The notes under the pieces were generated by a model, which ran no database searches, was not told the origin of the DNA, and saw only the letters and a program-made list of their open reading frames with translations. This document shows positions 44,718-58,510 of a DNA stretch of 64,000 nt, in pieces. Made by a program: the position numbers and the translations under genes. Origin of the DNA: Mobula hypostoma (Eukaryota); the NCBI RefSeq assembly GCF_963921235.1, contig NC_086097.1:108812001-108876000 (forward strand), written 5' to 3'. Position 1 is the first letter of the stretch. Every line of letters begins with the position of its first letter.

Positions 44718-47700
44718 GGCCAGGGTAGGTTCCGGTAAGTTTTTTGTTCAGATTGTTTAGAGTAGAGAGAATGCCAGGCAGGATGTTGGAATGCTCCTCT
44801 TGCAGGATGTGGGAAGTCAGGGAGCCCTCCGGTGTCCCTGACAACGACACCTGCAAGAAGTGCATCCAGCTGCAGCTCCTGACAAACCGCGTTAGGGAAC
44901 TGGAGCAGGAGCTGGATGACCTGCGGATCATTCGGGAGAATGAGGAGATTATAGATCGTAGCTACAGGGAGGTAGTTACGCCAAAGGAGCAGAGGAGAGG
45001 AAATTGGGTCACTGTCAGGCGAGGGAAGAGGAAAGGGCAGGCAGAGCAGGGTTCCCCTGTGGCCATTCCCCTCAACAACAAGTATACCGCATTGGATACT
45101 GTTGGGGGGGGATGACTTACCTGGGACTAGCTGCAGTAGCCGGATCTCTGGCACTGAGTCTGGCTCTGCAGTGCAGAAGGGAGGGGGGAAAAAGAGGAGA
45201 GCGGTAGTGATAGGGGACTCGATAGTTAGAGGTGCAGATAGGAGGTTCTGTGGTCATGACAGAGAATCCAGAATGGTTTGTTGCCTCCCAGGTGCCAGGG
45301 TCAAGGATGTCTCTGATCGATTGCATGACATTCTGAAGTGGGAGGGTAACCAGCCAGATGTCGTGGTGCACATCGGTACCAATGACATAGCAAGGAAGAG
45401 TGAGGAGGTCCTGGAGAGTGAGTATAGAGAGCTTGGTAGGAAGTTGAAAAGCAGGACCTCGAGAGTTGCTACCTGTGCTACGTGCCAGTGAGGGTAAGAA
45501 TAGGATGCTCTGGAAGATGAGCAAGTGGCTGAGGAACTGGTGTGGGGGGCAGGGTTTCAGATTTCAGGATCATTCTGGGGCAGGTGGGACCTGTACAAGA
45601 GAGACGGGTTACACTTGAACTACAGGGGGACCAATATCCTTTCAGGGAGGTTTGTTAGTGCTATTGGGGAGGCTTTAAACTAGATTTGCAGGGGGATGGG
45701 AACCAGAGTGCCAGAGCTGACGGTGTGGCTGGGGTGAAAATAAATGATGTTAAAAGTTCAAGCAAATCCGCTAATAGAAAGGTTGTGAGTGGTGGTAAAA
45801 ATCTTCTGAGGGGTATATATTTCAATGCTAGGAGTATTGCGGGGAAGGCGGATGAGTTGAGGGAGTGGATTGACACGTGGAATTATGACGTTATAGCAAT
45901 TAGTGAAACTTGGCTACAGGAGGGGCAGAACTGGCAGTTTAGTATTCCAGGGTTCCAATGTTTCAGATGTGATCGAGGCAGAGGAATGAAAGGTGGGGGA
46001 GTAGCATTGCTTGTTAGGGAAAATATTACAGCAGTGCTCAGGCAGGACAGATTAGAGGGCTTGTCTACTGAGTCCTTATGGGTGGAGCTGAGAAACAGGA
46101 AAGGTATGGCCACATTAGTGGGATTGTATTACAGACCACCCAATAGTCAGCGAGACTTGGAAGAGCAAATCTGCAGAGAGATAGCAGGCAACTGCAGGAA
46201 ACATAAAGTTGTGGTGGTAGGGGATTTTAATTTTCCGTACATTGATTGGGACTCCCATACTGTTAGGGGTCTAGATGGTTTAGTGTTTGTAAAATGTGTT
46301 CAGGAAAGTTTTCTAAATCAATATATAGAGGGACCAACTAGAGGGGATGCAATATTGGATCTCCTGTTAGGAAACGAGTTAGGACAAGTGACGGAAGTCT
46401 GTGCAGGGGAGCACTTTGGTTCCAGTGATCATAACACCATTAGTTTCAATTTGATCATGGACAAGGATAGATCTGGTCCTAGGGTTGAGGTTCTGAACTG
46501 GAAGAAGGCCAAATTTGAAGAAATGAGAAAGGATCTAAAAAGCGTGGATTGGGACAGGTTGTTCTCTGGCAAAGGTGTGATTGGTAGGTGGGAAGCCTTC
46601 AAAGGGGAAATTTTGAGAGTGCAGAGTTTGTATGTTCCTGTCAGGATTAAAGGCAAATTGAATAGGAATAAGGAACCTTGGTTCTCAAGGGATATTGCAA
46701 CTCTGATAAAGAAGAAGAGGGGGTTGTATGAAATATATAGGAAACAGGGAGTAAATCAGGTGCTTGAGGAGTAGAAGAAGTGCAAGAAAATACTTAAGAA
46801 AGTAATCAGGAGGGCTAAAAGAAGACATGAGGTTGCCTTGGCGGTCAAAGTGAAGGATAATCCAAAGAGCTTTTACAGGTATATTAAGAGCAAAAGGATT
46901 GTAAGGGATAAAATTGGTCCTCTTGAAGATCAGAGTGGTCGGCTTTGTGCGGAACCAAAGGAAATGGGGGAGATCTTAAATAGGTTTTTTGCATCTGTAT
47001 TTACTAAGGAAATTGGCATGAAGTCTATCAAGTAGTGAGATCATGGAAACTGTACAGATTGAAAAGGAGGAGGAGCTTGCTGTCTTGAGGAAAATTAAAG
47101 TGGATAAATCCCCGGGACCTGATAGAGTGTTCCCTCGGACCTTGAAGGAGACTAGTGTTGAAACTGCGGGGGCCCAGGCAGAAATATTTAAAATGTTGCT
47201 GTCTACGGGTGAGGTGCCGGAGGATTGGAGAGTGGCTCATGTTGTTCCGTTGTTTAAAAAAGGATCGAAAAGTAATCCGGGAAATTATAGGCCGGTGAGT
47301 TTAACGTTGGTAGTAGGTAAGTTATTGGAGGGAGTACTAAGAGACAGAATCTACAAGCATTTGGATAGACAGGGACTTATTAGGGAGAGTCAACATGGCT
47401 TTGTGCGTGGTAGGTCATGTTTGACCAATCTATTGGAGTTTTTCGAGGAGGTTACCAGGAAAGTGGCTGAAGGGAAGGCAGTGAATATTGTCTACATGGA
47501 CTTCAGTAAGGCCTTTGACAAGGTCCCGCATGGGAGGTTAGTTAGGAAAATTCAGTTGCTAGGTATACATGGAGAGGTGGTAAATTGGGTTAGACATTGG
47601 CTCAGTGGAAGAAGCCAAAGAGTGGTGGTAGAGAATTGCTTCTCTGAGTGGAGGCCTGTGACTAGTGGTGTGCCACAGGGATCAGTGCTGGGTCCATTGT

Positions 47701-48655
47701 TATTTGTCATCTATATCAATGATCTGGATGATAATGTGGTAAATTGGATCAGCAACTTTGCTGATGATACGAAGATTGGAGGTGTAGTAGACAGTGAGGA
47801 AGGTTTTCAGAGCTTGCAGAGGGACTTGGACCAGCAGGAAAAATGGGCTGAAAAATGGCAGATGGAGTTTAATACAGACAAGTTTGAGGTATTGCACGTT
47901 GGAAGGACAAACCAATGTAGAACATATAGGGTTAATGGTAAGGCACTGAGGTGTGCAGTAGAACAGAGGGATCTGGGAATACAGATACAAAATTCCCTAA
48001 AAGTGGTGTCACAAGTAGATAGGGTCGTAAAGAGAGCTTTTGGTACATTGGCCTTTATTAATCAAAGTATTGAGTATAAGATCTGGAATGTTATGATGAG
48101 GTTGTATAAGGCATTGGTGAGGCCGAATCTGGAGTATTGTGTTCAGTTTTGGTCACCAAATTACAGGAAGGATATAAATAAGGTTGAAAGAGTGCAGAGA
48201 AGGTTTACAAGGATGTTGCCAGGACTTGAGAAACTCAGTTACTGAGAAAGGTTGAATAGGTTAGAACTTTATTCCCTGGAGCGTGGAAGAATGAGGGGAG
48301 ATTTGATAGAGGTATATAAAATTATGATGGGTATAGATAGAGTGAATGCAAGCAGACTTTTTCCACTGAGGCAAGGAGAGAAAAAAACCAGGGGACATGG
48401 GTTAAGGGTGAGAGGGGAAAAGTTTAAAGGGAACATTCGGGGGGGGGGCTTCTTCACACAGAGAGTGGTGGGAGTATGGAATGAGCTGCCAGACGAGGTG
48501 GTAAATGCGGGATCTTTTTTAACATTTAAGAATAAATTGGACAGATACATGGATGGGAGGTGTATGGAGGGATATGGTCAGTGGGACCAGGCAGAAAATG
48601 GTTCGGCACAGCCAAGAAGGGACAAAAGGCCTGTTTCCGTGCTGTAGTTTCTATG
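44718..48655 (+). mobile_element. Near full-length CR1 LINE (ORF1 zinc-finger/coiled-coil + SGNH esterase; ORF2 APE-RT), disabled
   Basis: ORF1 from 44771 (CSSC…CKKC, GDSIVRG, HIGTND); ORF2 45686-48600 (ISETW, GDFN, SDHN, FADDTK) broken by stops at 46772 and 48243 and by frameshifts; TTCTATG tail; possible GTAAA TSD. Confidence 0.93.
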
Positions 48656-48811: not shown

Positions 48812-49003
48812 TGAAACCCATCTCGCGTTGCTGGGTCGCGGCCTCATCTCTGATTGGCTGATTGGCAATACTGCACGCGCATAACTAAGGAGATTCTAAT
48901 TGGGCCGCGGAGAGACTTATTCTCCGCATGCGCACTGTAGGTTGCTCCGTTGTGCTTTGGTTGGTGGACGGAAGGCTTCGCTTTGCCTTATGGGAAGATG
49001 GCG
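48812..49003 (+). promoter_or_regulatory. LSM5 core promoter (CpG-rich, housekeeping type)
   Basis: Local CpG enrichment; three ATTGG (CCAAT/NF-Y) boxes at ~48853, ~48861 and ~48899; NRF1-like GCATGCGCA at ~48926; YY1-like AAGATGGCG overlapping the ATG. Confidence 0.75.
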
Positions 49004-49040
49004 CTGAACTCGACTAATCCTTCGCAGCTGTTACCGCTGG
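48998..49040 (+). CDS. LSM5: LSM5 (U6 snRNA-associated Sm-like protein) coding exon 1
   Basis: ATG at 48998 gives MALNSTNPSQLLPL+G, then donor GTTAGC at 49041; matches the LSM5 N-terminus (…NPSQLLPLE). Confidence 0.93.
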
Positions 49041-49879
49041 GTTAGCATTGGGGTGGAACGGGGAGTCCGGGGATAGGGGGTTAATTCAGGAGCTGAAGCT
49101 ATGGAATTTATTCAGTGAAGAGACCTGGTGGGGAGGTGTGGTCGGGGGAAAGGAAGTTGGTTGGTTGGTTGGTTGGTTTATGGGGGGGGGGTGGACGCGG
49201 TTTATTGGGGGCCAGTGTGGAGTCGGGTTAGTTAGGGAGCATGGGGCTGTGGTTGTGGGCGAGCCCGGGGTGGGGGAGAGAGATGTCATAGGGGTTTCTG
49301 GTTCACCTGGAGGCTATAGCAAAGGCATCAAAATCTGATTTTTAAATCAGAGAATGCTGGAATACTCTAATAAGGCAGAGCCTAAATTATTAACTCTGAT
49401 TCTCAACAAGTTTCACCCACTTATATTATTTTTATTCTTTAGTACTAGTGAATTTGTTTTGCTTATAGTATTGTAAGGTGGGAGAGGGACTGGAGGAGCT
49501 GTTGGTGGTGCCAGTAGAGGTGTGGTGGCATTAGTAGGGAAAGAGATGATAGAAGGCATAAATGATCCATTTAATGGCAGTATGCTGTGATTCTGTTGCA
49601 TAAATGTGATTTCATAGTTTCATGTAACCATAGATAAGTTGCAAACGGAACATTTTCAGATGCTGGAATTCACAAAATGCTGTGCTTTTTTTTTCTAAAG
49701 CACAGTTGGTGTTTTGGGTTGAGACCTCATGAAGGGTTTTGGCCTGAAACATTGACTGTTTACTCCTTTCCACAGATGCATCCTGACCTGTTAAGTTCCT
49801 CCACCATAGATAGGTTAACTAGTCAGAGTTAAATTTAAATGTTTTATTTCTGTGTATTCATATTTCTCTTCTATTTCAG

Positions 49880-49975
49880 AGCTGGTGGACAAATGCATTG
49901 GTTCACGCATTCATATTGTCATGAAAAATGATAAAGAAATTGTAGGAACGCTACTAGGTTTTGATGATTTTGTCA
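49880..49975 (+). CDS. LSM5: LSM5 coding exon 2
   Basis: Acceptor tttctcttctatttcag; encodes (E)[31 protein letters not shown]+A; followed by U12-type donor GTATCCTTTT at 49976. Confidence 0.97.
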
Positions 49976-51601
49976 GTATCCTTTTATATTTTACTTACTA
50001 TTAATGTAGTGTGATTTAAGATTCTAAAACCGATCTTCTTTAAACTGACTAATCCAGATGGCAAGCAGTGTTGGTGTAACCATGGAGTATTTTGTGTCCC
50101 TTGCACAAGGGTGGAAACACTTAGAACTCAGAAGGGATTCACCAGGCAAGGGGTTGTGTCATAGGGCTGCATTTGATTCTCATTGTGTAACTTTTGATCG
50201 TGCTTTGTGTTTAAGGTATAAACATTTACGACAAAAGTCTTAGGCACATCAGTACAGCTCGGGTGCCTAAGACTTGCACAATACTGTACTTATTAACGTG
50301 GTGTGGAGAGCAAGTTTGTATATCTGGCAGGAACAAAAGATGTTGGGAGTGGTGAGAGTGGAGGGGTGTCTGACAGATGGCAGAAAAGGACTGCTTGGGC
50401 AGGGGGTGGTGTGGGTGCAGAACACACAGCCCTGAGACACTAGGCAAGGTAATTTCATTCCAAGCAATTCGTTTATTGATCATTACAGAATGTCTCTCTG
50501 GTGGTTCCTGGTCCTTCCCTCTCCCTTTCCCTTTCCTTTTTGCGACTATGATTCTCTCTTCTCCCTGCCCCCTTCCCATTCTCAGTCCACAATAGAGACC
50601 CACATCAGAATCGGGTTCGTCACTCTCGCACAGTATGTCATGAAATTTGTTTTTTGTGGTAGCAGTACAGTGCAATAGATAAAATTACCACAGTACTGTA
50701 CAAAAACCTTGTGTATTCTAGCGATATATGTGCCTAGGACTTTTGCACAATACTGTATGTACTTGTTTTAATTGGATATTGTAGCCAGTACTTCTCCTTT
50801 CTTGAAGAATTGGAGATAGGCTACTTGCATCTTTTACATCAAATGTTGGAAAATTAGTCTAGGAACGTAGTGCTTGCATCTGATGTGTTGAGTTACAGAA
50901 GCTTTCAGGAAGTTTCCATGGTGACTGACAGATATTAGAATTAACAGGAGGTTGTCTGCTTGAATACTGAGTAGAAGGTGGCATTAGTAGCAGGAGTATT
51001 TCATATCTACACAAATTGGCAGAATGTGATGAGTGACATTTTCTCATCCAGAAAGCCTCTGGCCCTATCCAGAGATTCTTGGTTAAAATGGCACGAAACA
51101 GACATTAAGTGATAAATCTAGGCTAGTGCTCATACAACCATAGATGTTTTTGGCACAGACAATTTGGTATCCATGCTAGTCAAAAGTGGACTTGTGGTTA
51201 AGCCAATTCCCAGCTCTCGGTCTGTAGTACTGTTGGTTCCATCTCTTGTACTCTTCCAAGCACTTGGAAATTTAGCGTTTCTGCTTTTGCCGCCCTTTTA
51301 GATATTGAAAGCATTCACCCACCCTCATTCATTGTGACTTTGTTTTCTCTATCTATATCATTCAAATTAAATTTCTTCTCCCCACCAGTTGCATACACTA
51401 TTGGAGCTTAATACAATTGTAGCCCCATTTGCTGCTGTTACACAACTAAACACAAAAGCAAGATTTAAGGAGGGTAGAGTCTGCAAAGGATTATAGATAG
51501 GTTAAATGAGTAGGAAGATGAGGTTATCCACACTGGAAGAAAGAGCAAAAATAGTAATTATTGTAAATAATTTGGAAAATACTTATCTCAAGTGGTTGAT
51601 G

Positions 51602-51750
51602 GCTGGGTTGAGTTGTTCTCCAATCTTGGTAATTTACTTACAAAGGTTTCATCACTTTGAGATATCAACAGTGCACTGATGATATATCCTCATATGATGA
51701 CAAAATGTTTGTAAGTAAATTGCCAAGATCGGAGAACAACTCAACCCAAC
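51602..51750. repeat. ~150-bp inverted repeat (fold-back of a Penelope-type 3' end)
   Basis: GGGTTGAGTTGTTCTCCAATCTTGGTAATTTACTTACAAA pairs with TTTGTAAGTAAATTGCCAAGATCGGAGAACAACTCAACCC; centre CAGTGCACTG. Confidence 0.85.
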
Positions 51751-52049
51751 AATGGTCATTATCTATATAGTCAGTTGTATAATGTTACAATACAAAGAAA
51801 TTGGAAGTCCTTTTGTGGGGGGAGGGCTGCATTAAAGGACAGGTGTTACAACTTTGGAGAGGGTCCAGAAATTTGGTTTAGAGTATTAACTCTAAGGAGA
51901 ATTTGGACAAACTTGGGTTGTATTCTCAGGAGTATTGGAGGTTAATGAGTGACCTTATAGAAGTATTTAAATTGAGAAGCATAGATAAGGTAAATGATCA
52001 GTGTTATCTCAGCTGAAAATGCAAAATACTAAAAGGCATAACTTTAAGG

Positions 52050-52130
52050 CAGGGGTTCCCAACCGTTTTTTATGCTATGGTCCAATACCATTAAGTAAGA
52101 GGTCTGTGGACCTCAGGTTGGGAACCCTTG
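52050..52130. mobile_element. hAT-type MITE (81 bp)
   Basis: TIRs CAGGGGTTCCCAACC / GGTTGGGAACCCTTG; perfect 8-bp TSD CTTTAAGG. Confidence 0.88.
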
Positions 52131-53611
52131 CTTTAAGGTGAGGGGGGTCAGTCTTTTCCTGCACAGAATGGCAGATGCCTGGAGCATGCTGCCTGGGAAA
52201 GTTGTGAAAGCAGATACATTAACAGTATTAAAGAGGCAGTTAGGTAGGCACATGGGCTGGTAGGGATTAGAGGGTCAAATAGTAGATCATGTGCAGAAAG
52301 ATGGAATTAGTTTAAATAGGCATTACAGCTGGCACCAGTGTTAAGGGGCAAAGCACAGATATCTGTGCTATACTGTTCTGTGATTGGAAATCTGCCAATG
52401 AAGCATCTCTACTAAAAAAAAAAGGAGGCAAGTGTAAAGGCTTGTCATTTGTTCTAACATCCATTGTTGAAAAAATACTTCCATAAACATTGAAACAAAA
52501 ACAGCATTTGGAAAATCCTAATCTAATCAAGCAGAGTTATGGTTTCATGAAATGGAAAGGCCTGAAACGTCGACTGCACCTCTTCCTACAGATGCTGCCT
52601 GGCCTGCTGCGTTCACCAGCAACTTTGATGTGTGGTGCCAAATTTAAATGTTTTTTGTGGAGATTTTGATCAGAGTGAATAAAAGGTTTTGTATTTGAAA
52701 GGTATTCAAGATGCTTTCCTTGCTGATGAAAGAAACAGCTTCATGTGCATGGAGGATTGGCAAATAGGCAAGAAGTAGCAAGTATGGGTGGGGGCGGGGT
52801 TCATTTTTAGTTTGTCAACCTGTGACTACTGGTACGCCATGGGCTGCAGTGTTGGAACTTACACCTGCTTACAATGTATATTAATGACATAGACAAAGGA
52901 AGTAAATGTGCTGTAGCTGCATTTACAGATAATTCAAGACCGACATGACATTGAGAGTCTTTGGAACTCTGTTTGACAATGAATGCAGAGTCCTTGTGTA
53001 TACTGTGTGTTGGAGAGAGATTTGTTAGATTTCTAATTATTGAGAGAATAGAGGATTATGGGAGCCGGGGGGCAGGAAAGTGGACTTCAGCAACGGCAAT
53101 TTGGCCATGGTTGTACTGAATGGTGCAGCAGACTTGAGGGGCTGAATGACCAGTTCCTGTCTCTGAATCAGGTGCACTTGGGATCATAGAATCATTGGTT
53201 CAGTGGCAAATGAAAGGAGGAGGAAGTTCAAAAGAACATCAGAGACTAGGTATATTGTTTGTTGCAGATACAATTGCAGGCTGATATTTCACATCTTTTG
53301 GATGCTTCACATCGTGGTTACCAATATGTGGCTGCAGAACATTCTGGAAGGCGAGGGCGAACAACCAAAGGTTATAGACTATTAGAAAATCAGTAGTGGT
53401 GGGGTGTTGAGGTGAGGTCCTGAAGCCATTTTGTTTAATGCGTTTGGAACTGCACAGATGTACACGATCCAGCGTATTCCACTGTAAAAACATTGTCAGT
53501 GCTAGCCTCCAGTGTTTGCATGGTGGAATGATAAACTGGATAGCATGGGCACATTCATCTGCTGATAACATCCATGCACCATCAACTTGCATGGGGAAAA
53601 AGTCTTAAAAT

Positions 53612-53742
53612 CTGCAGTGCACATGTGGAGATCGAGACTCTCTGTGGCCCAATTAGAATCTCTTTAGTTATATGCATGCGGAGTATTGCCAATCAACCAA
53701 TCAGAGCTGAGGCCGCGACCTGACAATGAGAGATGGGTTTCA
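53612..53742 (-). repeat. Inverted duplicate of the LSM5 core promoter (source 48812-48940)
   Basis: Aligns by eye to the reverse complement of 48812-48940, with many CpG-to-TpG/CpA changes. Confidence 0.85.
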
Positions 53743-56123
53743 TTCATAAACTGGAGAAGGAATCAGCTAGAAACCCTGAGAAGATTGCTCTGTTAATAAT
53801 TAGGTTATTGTCCATCTGGCCTTAAACTCCCATTTTTCTGCCTATTCTGCATTCTTCATTACCCAGTACAAAAATCCTATCAGTCTCAGTGCCTGACTCT
53901 GCCTCCACAACTTTCAGAGTAGAGAATTTCGGAGGTGATTAACCCTCCTTGAAGAAATTTGTGTGCTGTACTACCCCTTTTTCTGAATCTTTGCCACCAG
54001 GTCAAGATTCTTCCATGAGGATCTTCATCATAGAAATTGTCCAAGTGAGCCTTCTGAGTGCAAGTAAATAAGGAGATCAAAGTTGCACGTGTGTGATGTC
54101 ACAATAATAATAATATCAATATGCTTATACCCTATTCCTCTTGCAGTAAAAGACCAGCACCCTGCCTTTTTAATTATTTGCTGTACATGCATGTTAACTT
54201 TGTTTTACTTTATATAAGACTGGGATCCTTCTGCACAAATGGATCTGGTTGTTGATCACAAAGTTCAATAAATCTTCAATTGTAATACTCCCCTGGATCT
54301 TTGATTCAATCCATCTCTTCACTCTAGTTTATCTTTTGCCTTGTATTAACTATTTCTGATCTTATCTCCTCAAATTCTGAGCAATTAGTTATAGCTCTAG
54401 GTTTTGACTTTATTTCCTAACATCGAAGCTCAATGTAACATTGAATCTTTTGTGGCATGAACCTTTGTTTTTTCACCTCGACCAAAGATCTTCTCCCCAA
54501 ATTTACTATGTTCTTCCTGTTTTCAGAATTCCTAATCTACTTGGTTAGCCACGCTCAAGATCTGATTATACAAAACTGCCTGCATGCCTTTGACCTTTTC
54601 CAATTTTCCAGTGCCATGTCTTAATCTAAGCCACACTTCTGAATATGTAACACTGCTCACTGAGAGCAGGCACAGTCAATTTCATCTGTCTTAGAAGTGT
54701 GGTGCTGTAGTTTGGTGAACTGGCTTCTGCTGTACTGAGGCTGCATGCCAGCATTCTGGCACTGTTTTATATATGCTCCTGGACTACCACCCCTACCACT
54801 GACTACATTCTTTTAGAAGTATTCCTTTCCTATTGTAGGTTTCCATCTGTCGATCACCTGCTTTTACATCTTCCCTGAGATCCATAAGTAGAATTAGACC
54901 AAAGGGCTCCTCAAGCAAGCTAATTGAGATCATGGCTGATCTTATTTTAAATTCACTGTAATTTTTATGACTCCACTTTTCCTTTTGCTCTGTTGTGGTT
55001 CAAATCTCTGTCAACTCTGCCTTGAACCTGTTTAATCATTCTGACTCCACAGATATCCAAGTAAAACAATTGTAAAAATCCATGGTCCTCTGAGAGCCAA
55101 AACTATTCATCACTGGAATAGGAAATTGATTGTTCTGAAATAGTGCCTCTTATCCCCCAGTTCTAGATATCCCCTTTAAGGAAATGTCCTCAGAATCAAT
55201 CCATTGAATGCCTGTCAAAATCTTGCAGATTTCAACAAGCTAGCCTGTCAGTTTTCCAAATAGCTGTGAATACTGTATCAACCTTGTTTTTCATATGTCA
55301 ATTACTTAATTGCAGGAATCAATTTAATGAACCTTTTCCATGCTACCTGGATTGAAAATAATACCTCAATATAGAGACAATAACTTGCACTCAGTAATCA
55401 CATCAAATTTTGGCAGCATCCTGTAAATTTGCACCAGGAGTTCCCTGCTTTCATACCTGTACCCCCCCCCCCCCCGGCCAGCCTCAGGGTCCCTGGGCTC
55501 GCTGTCATCTTACAATTAAAGCCAACATTTCATTAGTCTTCCTCAATACTTGCTGTACCTGCATGCTAACCTTTTGTTGAAGGTACCAAAAGTCCTTCAA
55601 CCACTTAAACCATAATAATTGGTGGTCTCTCCATTTAAATTTGCTTTTCCATACTTCAGATTTTTCCTCAAAATCCTCTCGCATGCCATTTTTTTGGGTC
55701 TAATCCAGATCTATCCATAGTTGAGTAAATTTTATTAAAATTTTTTTTTAAAATGTTGGAATTGCTCAGCCGGTTAGGCAACACCTGTGGACAAAGGAAC
55801 AGATAAAGCTTCAAGTTTGGGATTACTATCAAAAACTCAGGGCCAGAACCAGACCTGAACTGTGAATTGTTACTGTTTCCCAGATGCTGCTTGACTTGAG
55901 TTTTTCCCAATATTTTCTGTTGAGACTAGTTTGTTCTTAAATCCAAACTGCACTCTTTCTTCTTTCCCCACCCCTAATTCATGGTTTTCCCAGTTCCTTG
56001 CTCAACATCCTTGCCTGTACATTCTACAGAAGCTTCACTACAGAAATGAAAACTATTGGTATCAATTTGTAATAAACTAAGTACATTTCTGTTGTAAGTG
56101 GATTTCTTAACTCCGATCTCTGG

Positions 56124-56151
56124 ATATGGTACTTGAAGATGTCACAGAATT
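56124..56151 (+). CDS. LSM5: LSM5 coding exon 3 (28 nt)
   Basis: AT ATG GTA CTT GAA GAT GTC ACA GAA TT = (N)MVLEDVTE(F); donor GTAAGT at 56152; preceded by U12 branch TTTCTTAAC and a non-canonical GG acceptor. Confidence 0.92.
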
Positions 56152-56770
56152 GTAAGTATTTTTATTCTTTTTTATTTTGCTATGTAAGACTACTTGCTAG
56201 CAATATTAAAATGTACACCTAGATTTCTTTATTTGCTATTCTGTCCAGATAATCTGAGGAAATGTGTTACTGCCTTTTTAGCACGTTCTTTATTGTGAAG
56301 TCATAGAAGGCTAATGTTTGTATATAATTATCCATTGAATGTAGAATAACTGAAAAATCAATTTGCTTTTAATCTTGTGAGTATGTTCTTTGCTGGATGA
56401 CTTGTAATCAGGCCTTCAGGGAATCACTTCTTCAACAGACCTGTAGCTGAACTAGTTTTGATTCCAGTTCTTTTACTGGAGTAATTTGTTGAATCATTCT
56501 CAAGGACGACCACTGCATCCAGGTTTTGTCAATGACTTGCGTTCCCATTATAAATGCGTTTTGGAATTCAAACTGTCCTGCAATTTTATGTCCTGTAGAA
56601 TATTGCGCATTCTATGTAATAGAATTAAATATTAGTCCTGACAGAAACCATCTTCGGCTCTAATTGAAGCCTTGCACCCTAATTCACTTTTGGACTTGTA
56701 TTCAAGTCTGGTGCTATGTTGTAACTGCTAACTGTAGTGGCTATATTCTTTTACTCTTTATTTTCTATAG

Positions 56771-56843
56771 TGAGATCACGCCAGAAGGAAGAAGAATCAC
56801 AAAACTGGATCAAATCTTATTGAATGGGAATAACATAACTATG
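56771..56843 (+). CDS. LSM5: LSM5 coding exon 4
   Basis: Acceptor ttttctatag; encodes (F)EITPEGRRITKLDQILLNGNNITM; donor GTATGT at 56844. Confidence 0.97.
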
Positions 56844-57914
56844 GTATGTAATGGTAACAAAAAAAAATTCAAAATGTGTCTGAATTATTAAAGCTTTCTG
56901 GTATTTTTAGTCAGAGACACCTAGAAAGTAGGATGAGGCTGTACTTTGAACTCCAGACAGATTTCTGGTATTAAGTTTTCATGCATATTTAAAAAAAGCA
57001 ATAAAAATTGAATTTGTAATTTAACTTTTCAGGGATCATTTGTTCTTTGACCCACCAAATAGAGATCAAAAGAGTACTATTGTCCCTCATTTAAAACAAT
57101 TATATATAGCATTTGAAGCTTAAGGCTGCACTTGAGTCTTGTTTAATTCTGTGTCCATCGATACTCCTCAGTGTCTCTTTATTCTGCCATCTTACAATCG
57201 GAGCACCTTGGTTCTCTTGCCAAGATATTGCCTCATGCAATACCTTTATTAAAATTTGTAAACGGGTACAAAATTCTCAAATTTCAATGTCATATACTAC
57301 ATCAAGGACACTTAGAAGCACATACATTCAGATGTGCTTGACAATGGAAAGATAGCTCAACGGAATGCCATTGTTTCAGCTGTTTCATGCCTGTCCATTT
57401 TTCTTTGGGATCCTTGTGCAGCAATCAACATTTATGAAGCCAGCAAATCAAATCCTTGGTTTATTTGGATGAAGCTTGCTGCTGACAGCAGTTCTTGCTT
57501 CAGAGTTGTACAGCATAGCAACAGCTCCTCTGGCTCACCGTTATCCCTATTTACAATAATCCCATTTGCCTGTGTTAATTTGATATTTCTGTATGGCCTG
57601 CTCATTCAAGATGCCTCTTAAATGTTGTTTATGTTCCTGCCTCCTCCATCTCTAGTGACAGCTCATTCTCAGCAATTATATTATTATACCATGTTTTATC
57701 ATTTTGACTCTATCACATGCATGTACTACTATTATCCATTACGTGTTTTTTTCCTAAATCCTTTGCCTTTATTCATCCATGTTGGCCCATTAGTCTAATA
57801 TATTTTTATTCTCCAGACTTAAAGCTGTTATTACTGTCATCAGACATATGCTGATTAAAAGTAAATGTCCCTCATCAGGATGTTCTTGTGAGATCTATCA
57901 TCTCCTATTATAAG

Positions 57915-58477: not shown

Positions 58478-58510
58478 CTTATACCTGGTGGTGAAGGCCC
58501 TGAAGTATGA
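58478..58510 (+). CDS. LSM5: LSM5 coding exon 5 (terminal)
   Basis: Acceptor ctttgcag; LIPGGEGPEV-TGA. Exons sum to 43+96+28+73+33=273 nt, giving an intact 90-aa LSM5. Confidence 0.96.
   Translation, partial: LIPGGEGPEV

What the first reader, a model, noticed from the sequence alone, without database searches (positions are those of the whole stretch)
56100..56157. LSM5 U12-type intron 2 appears to end in GG rather than AG
Seen: the donor is GTATCCTTTT (49976), a textbook U12 5' site. The branch TTTCTTAAC lies ~13 nt upstream of exon 3, and the intervening ctccgatctctgg contains no AG. Keeping the conserved FV-N-MVLEDVTEF frame requires splicing after GG at 56122-56123; the next AG (56137-56138) would shift the frame. 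Established: the minor spliceosome sets its 3' site largely by distance from the branch point and tolerates unusual terminal dinucleotides, but GT-GG is rare; LSM5 belongs to the LSm2-8 ring that binds U6/U6atac. Inference: a weak minor intron in a spliceosome component could be rate-limiting or autoregulatory.
Basis: partly seen in the sequence, partly recalled or inferred. Interest (0 to 1): 0.75.

Follow-up and report, generated by a model that had tools for sequence, protein, structure and literature searches.

The report
LSM5 minor intron ends in GG
In this animal and four close relatives, one intron of the housekeeping splicing gene LSM5 ends in GG instead of the usual AG and, in the two species whose RNA was checked, is still cut exactly there, likely because the rare "minor" splicing machine finds the intron end by distance; this is a known, rare intron subtype, here likely born from one base change.

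Summary
LSM5 intron 2 (49976-56123) has a U12 donor, one U12 branch site and ends TGG. RNA contigs of two organisms join 49975 to 56124 with GT..GG ends and no room to slide; DNA runs lack the joint. GG is unchanged in four related organisms from four studies, so it is no assembly error. The human intron is U12 GT-AG with the same branch 9-mer and the same 12-base spacing, and 99 of 99 metagenome LSM5 loci with this intron end AG: GG likely arose by one A-to-G change. One first-reader detail is wrong: the next AG is in frame (+15, loses five residues). GT-GG minor introns are known (human SLC12A7, TCTN3, ARAF; 0.2% of conserved animal minor introns). No LSM5 case turned up in the papers searched. 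The proposed rate-limiting or autoregulatory role is untested: contigs give no levels, and conservation over 2-4% divergence does not show selection. New member of a known kind; interest 0.3.

The parts
48998..49040 (+). LSM5 exon 1, coding part (MALNSTNPSQLLPL-)
   Evidence: RNA joint 49039/40 to 49879/80 GT..AG in run X5
49880..49975 (+). LSM5 exon 2
   Evidence: 30 of 31 residues identical to human LSm5 17-47; Pfam LSM 31.4 bits over cut-off 23.4
49976..49985 (+). U12-type donor GTATCCTTTT
   Evidence: pairs with the 5' end of this genome's U11 snRNA gene, 8 pairs, -7.1 kcal/mol
49976..56123 (+). intron 2, 6148 bases, U12-type, GT-GG
   Evidence: joint 49975 to 56124 in RNA contigs of organisms A and B
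56103..56111 (+). U12-type branch site TTTCTTAAC, the only such motif in the intron
   Evidence: pairs with this genome's U12 snRNA gene with one A bulged, -9.9 kcal/mol
56122..56123 (+). non-canonical acceptor GG (TGG), 12 bases after the branch C
   Evidence: human counterpart CAG at the same distance
56124..56151 (+). LSM5 exon 3, 28 bases
   Evidence: length fixed by human residues 48-57
56137..56138 (+). first AG after the branch, inside exon 3, in frame (+15), 27 bases after the branch C; not seen used among the joints shown
56771..56843 (+). LSM5 exon 4
   Evidence: 24 of 24 residues identical to human LSm5 58-81
58478..58510 (+). LSM5 exon 5, coding part with stop

Best explanation
LSM5 intron 2 ends in GG and is spliced exactly at that GG, likely by the minor (U12) spliceosome, which likely places the cut about 12 bases after the branch site, so that a likely single A-to-G change from an ancestral AG was tolerated as a near-neutral lineage variant. 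Shown: the termini, the spliced joint in two organisms, GG in five related organisms, the AG of the human and of all metagenome counterparts, and U11 and U12 genes that can pair with donor and branch. Inferred: U11/U12 bind donor and branch together; the 3' site is set by branch distance and by the last G, so the second-last base is free to vary; the first AG downstream (27 bases from the branch) is out of the U12 range and would remove five conserved residues; the product is a normal 90-aa LSm5. A modest loss of splicing efficiency is plausible but unmeasured.
For: Joint 49975 to 56124, GT..GG, slide 0, in runs X5 (organism A) and X13 (organism B), absent from DNA runs X1 and X9; in X5 all four LSM5 joints stand at one contig depth, as one full mRNA contig would give. 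GG unchanged in 4 of 4 runs of organisms B, C, D, E from four studies. Human LSM5 intron 2 is U12 GT-AG with the same donor decamer, same branch 9-mer and the same 12-base spacing (PMC8280824 supplement); human and mouse introns are classed minor and respond to minor-spliceosome loss in some data sets (human 3 of 9 columns, mouse 5 of 6). 99 of 99 metagenome loci with an intron here end AG (81 of 81 distinct); 7 distinct ones with a U12-like branch have spacing 12. Optimum distance 11-13 and tolerance of odd termini, often with lower efficiency (PMC3584512). GT-GG is a listed U12 subtype and SLC12A7 switches GG/AG between human and mouse. One LSM5 match in the genome; U12 147 bits and U11 123 bits.
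Against: U12 dependence was not tested in this species. The joint has short sides (28 and 22 letters, set by the small exon) and the tool marks letters between as 'not known'; 15 of 551 joints were shown, so minor use of other acceptors cannot be excluded. Both RNA labels are guesses and all data are contigs. The near-neutral part is the weakest: human GT-GG minor introns show more retention in control cells (TCTN3 0.075 and 0.090, SLC12A7 0.28 and 0.11, ZDHHC1 alternative site 0.046, PLCB1 alternative site 0.004) than human LSM5 GT-AG (0.014-0.036) (few introns, different genes). The outgroup is human plus unnamed, mostly distant eukaryotes; no fish or other near outgroup was seen, so the age and direction of the change rest on parsimony.
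Confidence: 0.8

Rival explanations
1. The GG is a selected throttle: it slows removal of intron 2 so that LSm5 supply, and with it U6/U6atac snRNP supply, is limited or self-regulated.
For: Non-canonical U12 termini often splice less efficiently, and slow U12 splicing has been proposed as rate-limiting (PMC3584512). Human GT-GG minor introns show higher retention than human LSM5 GT-AG. GG is kept in five organisms, also in organism D, where the branch spacing shrank by 2 bases.
Against: 94% of the 86 intron positions covered by all four relatives are unchanged too, so keeping GG is what drift predicts. The GG form is the one assembled as the spliced mRNA in both RNA runs. No tandem U12 donor of the USSE kind: one such motif in the intron. 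Both downstream AGs are in frame, so they give no NMD switch. The loop would be positive feedback (inference).
Confidence: 0.1
2. The GG locks the intron into the minor pathway: without AG the major spliceosome's U2AF cannot use this acceptor, so neither cryptic major donors nor an evolutionary U12-to-U2 conversion can bypass the minor spliceosome at LSM5.
For: Cryptic U2 donors splice to a U12 acceptor that has AG when the U12 donor is impaired (PMC1874599 passage); human LSM5 gains alternative-donor events in ZRSR2-mutant cells. This intron position carries a non-U12 GT donor in 69 of 72 distinct metagenome loci with a visible donor, so both classes occur here. U2AF recognising AG is stated in the abstract of PMC13326754 (listing).
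Against: Human TCTN3, a GT-GG minor intron, also gains alternative-donor events in the same data. Major-type introns can end in GG (BANP, RBFOX2). A lock may be a side effect without selection. Nothing was measured in this species.
Confidence: 0.08
3. The G at 56122 is an assembly error or a private variant, or transcripts use the in-frame AG at 56137-56138 or an edited AG.
For: The best DNA run may be the source of the assembly and so is not independent. AG is present in every outgroup seen.
Against: GG stands in contigs of four other organisms from four studies; the spliced joint is at 56124 in two organisms; 16 of 16 distinct loci without this intron keep V-N-MVLEDVTE across the site (MVLED itself was part of the search pattern).
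Confidence: 0.02

Closest known systems
Non-canonical GT-GG U12-type introns (human ARAF, SLC12A7, TCTN3; PMC1557818 Tables 2-3, PMC8280824 supplements, PMC10639083 Table S1)
   Same: U12 donor, U12 branch, short spacing, GG end. The human SLC12A7, TCTN3 and alternative ZDHHC1 acceptors end TGG, as here. SLC12A7 is GG in human and AG in mouse, the same kind of lineage switch. The subtype makes up 159 (0.216%) of conserved animal minor introns.
   Different: Different gene and lineage; here the host gene encodes a subunit of the U6/U6atac-binding LSm ring, and the GG site appears to be the constitutive one in a single-match housekeeping gene. No LSM5 GT-GG case was found in the searches made.
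Human and mouse LSM5 intron 2 (U12-type)
   Same: Same position and phase, same donor decamer, same branch 9-mer, same 12-base spacing, same exon start (human); classed minor in both species.
   Different: Human ends CAG and is about 0.6 kb; this one ends TGG and is 6148 bases. The mouse termini were not seen.
Major-type GT-GG acceptors (BANP, RBFOX2; PMC4176328)
   Same: GG acceptor derived from an older AG in one set of lineages (BANP).
   Different: Those are described as alternative acceptors beside a canonical one; this one has a U12 donor and branch and no AG within range.
USSE feedback of U11-48K and U11/U12-65K (PMC3584512)
   Same: A spliceosome component whose own pre-mRNA carries U12 signals.
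   Different: No tandem U12 donor enhancer and no NMD-target isoform found here.

Membership tests
U12-type intron | 5' site RTATCCTTT at the exon end | tested here: met
   GTATCCTTTT at 49976; predicted pairing with own U11
U12-type intron | conserved branch site that pairs with U12 snRNA | tested here: met
   TTTCTTAAC 56103-56111, same as human LSM5; predicted duplex -9.9 kcal/mol with own U12
U12-type intron | branch to 3' site distance about 11-13 bases | tested here: met
   12 after the branch C, 13 after the last A; 10 after the C in organism D; optimum from PMC3584512
U12-type intron | no distinct polypyrimidine tract | tested here: inconclusive
   pyrimidine share 0.75 in the last 20 bases against 0.65-0.85 in the three major introns; the stretch includes the branch
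U12-type intron | minor spliceosome present in the genome | tested here: met
   U12 and U11 over Rfam cut-offs; U4atac and U6atac not searched
U12-type intron | removal depends on U11/U12/U6atac | not testable with these tools
   reported for the human and mouse counterparts in some data sets, not for this species
GT-GG U12 subtype | genomic GT and GG termini used in spliced RNA, without direct-repeat ambiguity | tested here: met
   joint GT..GG, slide 0, two organisms; GG in four relatives
LSm5 | LSM domain and orthology to LSm5 | tested here: met
   Pfam PF01423 over cut-off; 30/31 and 24/24 identity to human LSm5; one match in the genome
Major-type (U2) GT-GG intron | U1-type donor GTRAGT | tested here: not met
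   donor is GTATCC
USSE-type autoregulation | tandem U12 donor enhancer | tested here: not met
   one RTATCCTT in intron 2; two RTATCCTTT in the whole window, 4.3 kb apart
USSE-type autoregulation | regulated unproductive isoform | tested here: inconclusive
   none among the 15 of 551 joints shown; contigs drop rare forms

The most novel reading that the evidence does not exclude
In this lineage the AG-to-GG change made LSm5, a subunit shared by both spliceosomes and the mRNA-decay ring, strictly and more weakly dependent on the minor spliceosome: the major spliceosome can no longer rescue this acceptor, so minor-spliceosome activity sets LSm5 supply, and the GG is kept by selection across the whole clade.
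Probability: 0.1. Interest if true: 0.6.

Novelty: new member of a known kind. Interest (0 to 1): 0.3.

Why it matters
It is a clean natural test pair: the same ancient intron, with the same donor, branch and spacing as in human, differing at the acceptor (TGG against CAG), in a housekeeping gene. It supports distance-based 3' site choice by the minor spliceosome and offers a ready minigene to measure the cost of GG. It is also a trap for gene finders, since the nearest AG is in frame and would give a plausible but likely broken 85-aa LSm5 (whether databases hold such a model was not checked). It would matter more only if GG proved to be selected and to throttle LSm5, which nothing here shows.

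Tried and rejected
Levels from contig depth: not counted, since the tool says contig depth cannot rank parts of a gene. For the record (table 8, cut list): unspliced intron 2 pieces stood at 4-8 (X5) and 5-32 (X13) beside spliced joints at 387 and 485, with major introns 3 and 4 at 3-10 (X5) and 15-16 plus one piece at 128 (X13), and an intron 1 piece at 68 (X13); unspliced pieces may also be DNA in the library. No run was on record as RNA and none was kept as raw reads. One search's table of other letters showed 40 of 199 rows and was not used for the letter at 56122; on a short stretch was. Of 23 runs listed, 7 were laid (X13 twice). RNA editing of GG to AG: unspliced contigs of RNA-like runs read GG, but these may be DNA, so this is weak. 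Compensation by stronger U12 pairing: the window's branch can extend by two pairs, but its energy (-9.9) lies within that of AG-ending counterparts (-6.4 to -12.5) and organism D lost the extension: rejected. Selection from conservation: 81 of 86 neighbouring intron positions are equally unchanged: rejected as evidence. LSM5 is absent from a human list of non-canonical sites, but that list also lacks the ARAF GT-GG intron, so it is weak. Supplements: none readable for PMC1557818, so its five human GT-GG genes were seen only in part; no LSM5 row in PMC2831892 or PMC10639083 supplements; one file each of PMC4176328 and PMC8280824 was not searched; preprint supplements are closed. No protein database search was run.

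Full report
Observation. The window holds a five-exon LSM5 gene on the + strand: coding exons 48998-49040, 49880-49975, 56124-56151, 56771-56843 and 58478-58510, giving 90 residues. Exon 2 is 30 of 31 identical to human LSm5 residues 17-47 and exon 4 is 24 of 24 identical to residues 58-81, which leaves exactly 30 bases for residues 48-57 and so fixes exon 3 at 28 bases from 56124. Intron 2 (49976-56123, 6148 bases) begins GTATCCTTTT, has its only U12-type branch motif TTTCTTAAC at 56103-56111, and ends TGG, with no AG between 56099 and 56136. Introns 1, 3 and 4 are ordinary GT-AG. The genome gave one match for exon 2 and one for the exon 3 region.

Is GG real and used? Of 23 runs listed, seven were laid. 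On the whole gene, RNA-like runs of organism A (X5) and organism B (X13) each gave a contig joining 49975 to 56124, ends GT..GG, with no letters that fit both sides; the DNA runs X1 and X9 gave none. X5 carries all four LSM5 joints at one depth figure. Caveats: contigs only, RNA labels guessed, sides of 28 and 22 letters, letters between marked 'not known' as for the canonical joints, 15 of 551 joints shown. A DNA contig of organism A covers 55462-57626 without a difference, but may be the source of the assembly. Two of these contigs have depth under 5. Organism D lacks two bases at 56113, shortening the branch spacing to 10. These organisms differ from the window by only about 1-4%.

What was there before? 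In the supplement of PMC8280824 human LSM5 intron 2 is U12 GT-AG with the same ten donor bases, the same branch 9-mer, 12 bases to the end as here, and CAG where this genome has TGG. Human and mouse introns are classed minor and respond to minor-spliceosome loss in 3 of 9 and 5 of 6 data columns (PMC11347168 supplement). A pattern scan of metagenome contigs returned 118 LSM5 exon 3 loci (of about 310): 19 lack this intron, and 99 of 99 with it end AG (81 of 81 distinct); seven distinct loci with a U12-like branch have spacing 12 and one has 10. Of 72 distinct loci with a visible donor, 3 have a U12 donor and 69 another GT donor. AG is therefore the likely ancestral state and GG a likely single transition; no near outgroup was available to date it.

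Mechanism. Shown: termini, joint, and U11 and U12 genes in this genome whose ends are predicted to pair with the donor (8 pairs) and the branch (one A bulged). From the literature: U12 introns are defined by donor and branch, the 3' site lies best 11-13 bases from the branch, and non-canonical termini work, often less efficiently (PMC3584512 passages; the primary mutational papers were not read). Inferred: the minor spliceosome cuts after the G at the inherited distance, indifferent enough to the second-last base; the first AG, 27 bases from the branch, is out of range. The result is normal LSm5. I put this at 0.8, the doubt lying almost wholly in whether GG is near-neutral.

The regulatory idea. 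For it: human GT-GG minor introns are more retained in control cells (TCTN3 0.075-0.090, SLC12A7 0.11-0.28) than human LSM5 (0.014-0.036), though two alternative GG sites are lower (0.046, 0.004). Against it: 81 of 86 neighbouring intron positions are just as unchanged in the four relatives; no tandem U12 enhancer; no frame-shifting AG nearby; LSM5, LSM8, SNRPE and RNPC3 all carry minor introns in human (PMC1874599 Table 1), so the link between minor splicing and this gene is old and needs no GG. Contig depth cannot measure retention. A second idea, that GG shuts out the major spliceosome, fits the alternative-donor events of human LSM5 in ZRSR2-mutant cells but human TCTN3, GT-GG, shows them too.

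Comparison with what is known. GT-GG is a listed U12 subtype: 5 human and 3 mouse cases, ARAF conserved, SLC12A7 GG in human and AG in mouse (PMC1557818 Tables 2-3); 159 introns, 0.216% of conserved animal minor introns (PMC10639083 Table S1). Membership in U12-type and in GT-GG was met on donor, branch, spacing and spliced termini; dependence on the minor spliceosome is not testable here. Searches for an LSM5 case: LSM5 + U12 + GT-GG 0 papers; LSM5 + minor intron + U12 3 papers, two read at their single mention, none on termini; minor intron + non-canonical + cartilaginous fish + U12 0; LSM5 + non-canonical splice + intron 1, on Plasmodium, listing only. The library lacks most subscription papers, and intron databases (U12DB, IAOD, MIDB) may hold the case. 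What I saw of each paper: passages of PMC1557818 (and its section 23), PMC2831892, PMC1635337, PMC8850803, PMC12956336, PMC7367187, PMC10639083, PMC4176328, PMC3584512, PMC1874599 and the TOGA2 preprint; supplement rows of PMC8280824 (main text not read), PMC11347168 (main text not read), PMC10639083 and PMC4176328; listing only for PMC13326754 and PMC3089446. That LSm5 belongs to LSm2-8 and LSm1-7 is recalled; the structure database names it U6 snRNA-associated.

Verdict. A real, used, rare acceptor: new member of a known kind. Interest 0.3; the selected-lock or throttle reading has probability about 0.1 and would deserve 0.6.

Noticed in passing
window 53609-53742 (- strand) and 48812-48943: An inverted copy of the LSM5 core promoter region (three CCAAT boxes and a GC-rich motif) lies inside intron 2, 83% identical, at only these two places in the genome; CpG count 4 against 10 in the promoter, as a decayed copy would show. 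The stop-to-stop frame beside it (53239-53604, -) has no Pfam match.
   Followed up: partly
window 49341-49979: In run X13 (organism B) one contig covers the 3' 540 bases of intron 1 and runs into exon 2 unspliced: retained intron 1 or an alternative first exon or start.
   Followed up: no
window 56113-56114: Organism D lacks these two bases, so its branch-to-GG distance is 10 rather than 12; no spliced RNA of D was seen.
   Followed up: no
window 45659-48245 (+): A LINE-type element (endonuclease and reverse transcriptase domains in two consecutive frames) ends a few hundred bases upstream of the LSM5 promoter.
   Followed up: partly
window 51604-51748: A 145-base imperfect palindrome (83%) in intron 2, in a repeat-rich stretch; perhaps a small transposon.
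   Followed up: no
L002-L119: The LSM5 intron 2 position is shared across very distant eukaryotes and occurs as U12-type (3 of 72 visible donors), with other GT donors (69 of 72) or lost (16 of 97 distinct loci); some copies are only 23-38 bases long.
   Followed up: partly
human SLC12A7, TCTN3, ZDHHC1 rows of PMC8280824 supplement 1: All three human GT-GG minor acceptors whose sequence was seen end TGG, as this one does; a T before GG may be favoured (3 of 3 plus this one).
   Followed up: no
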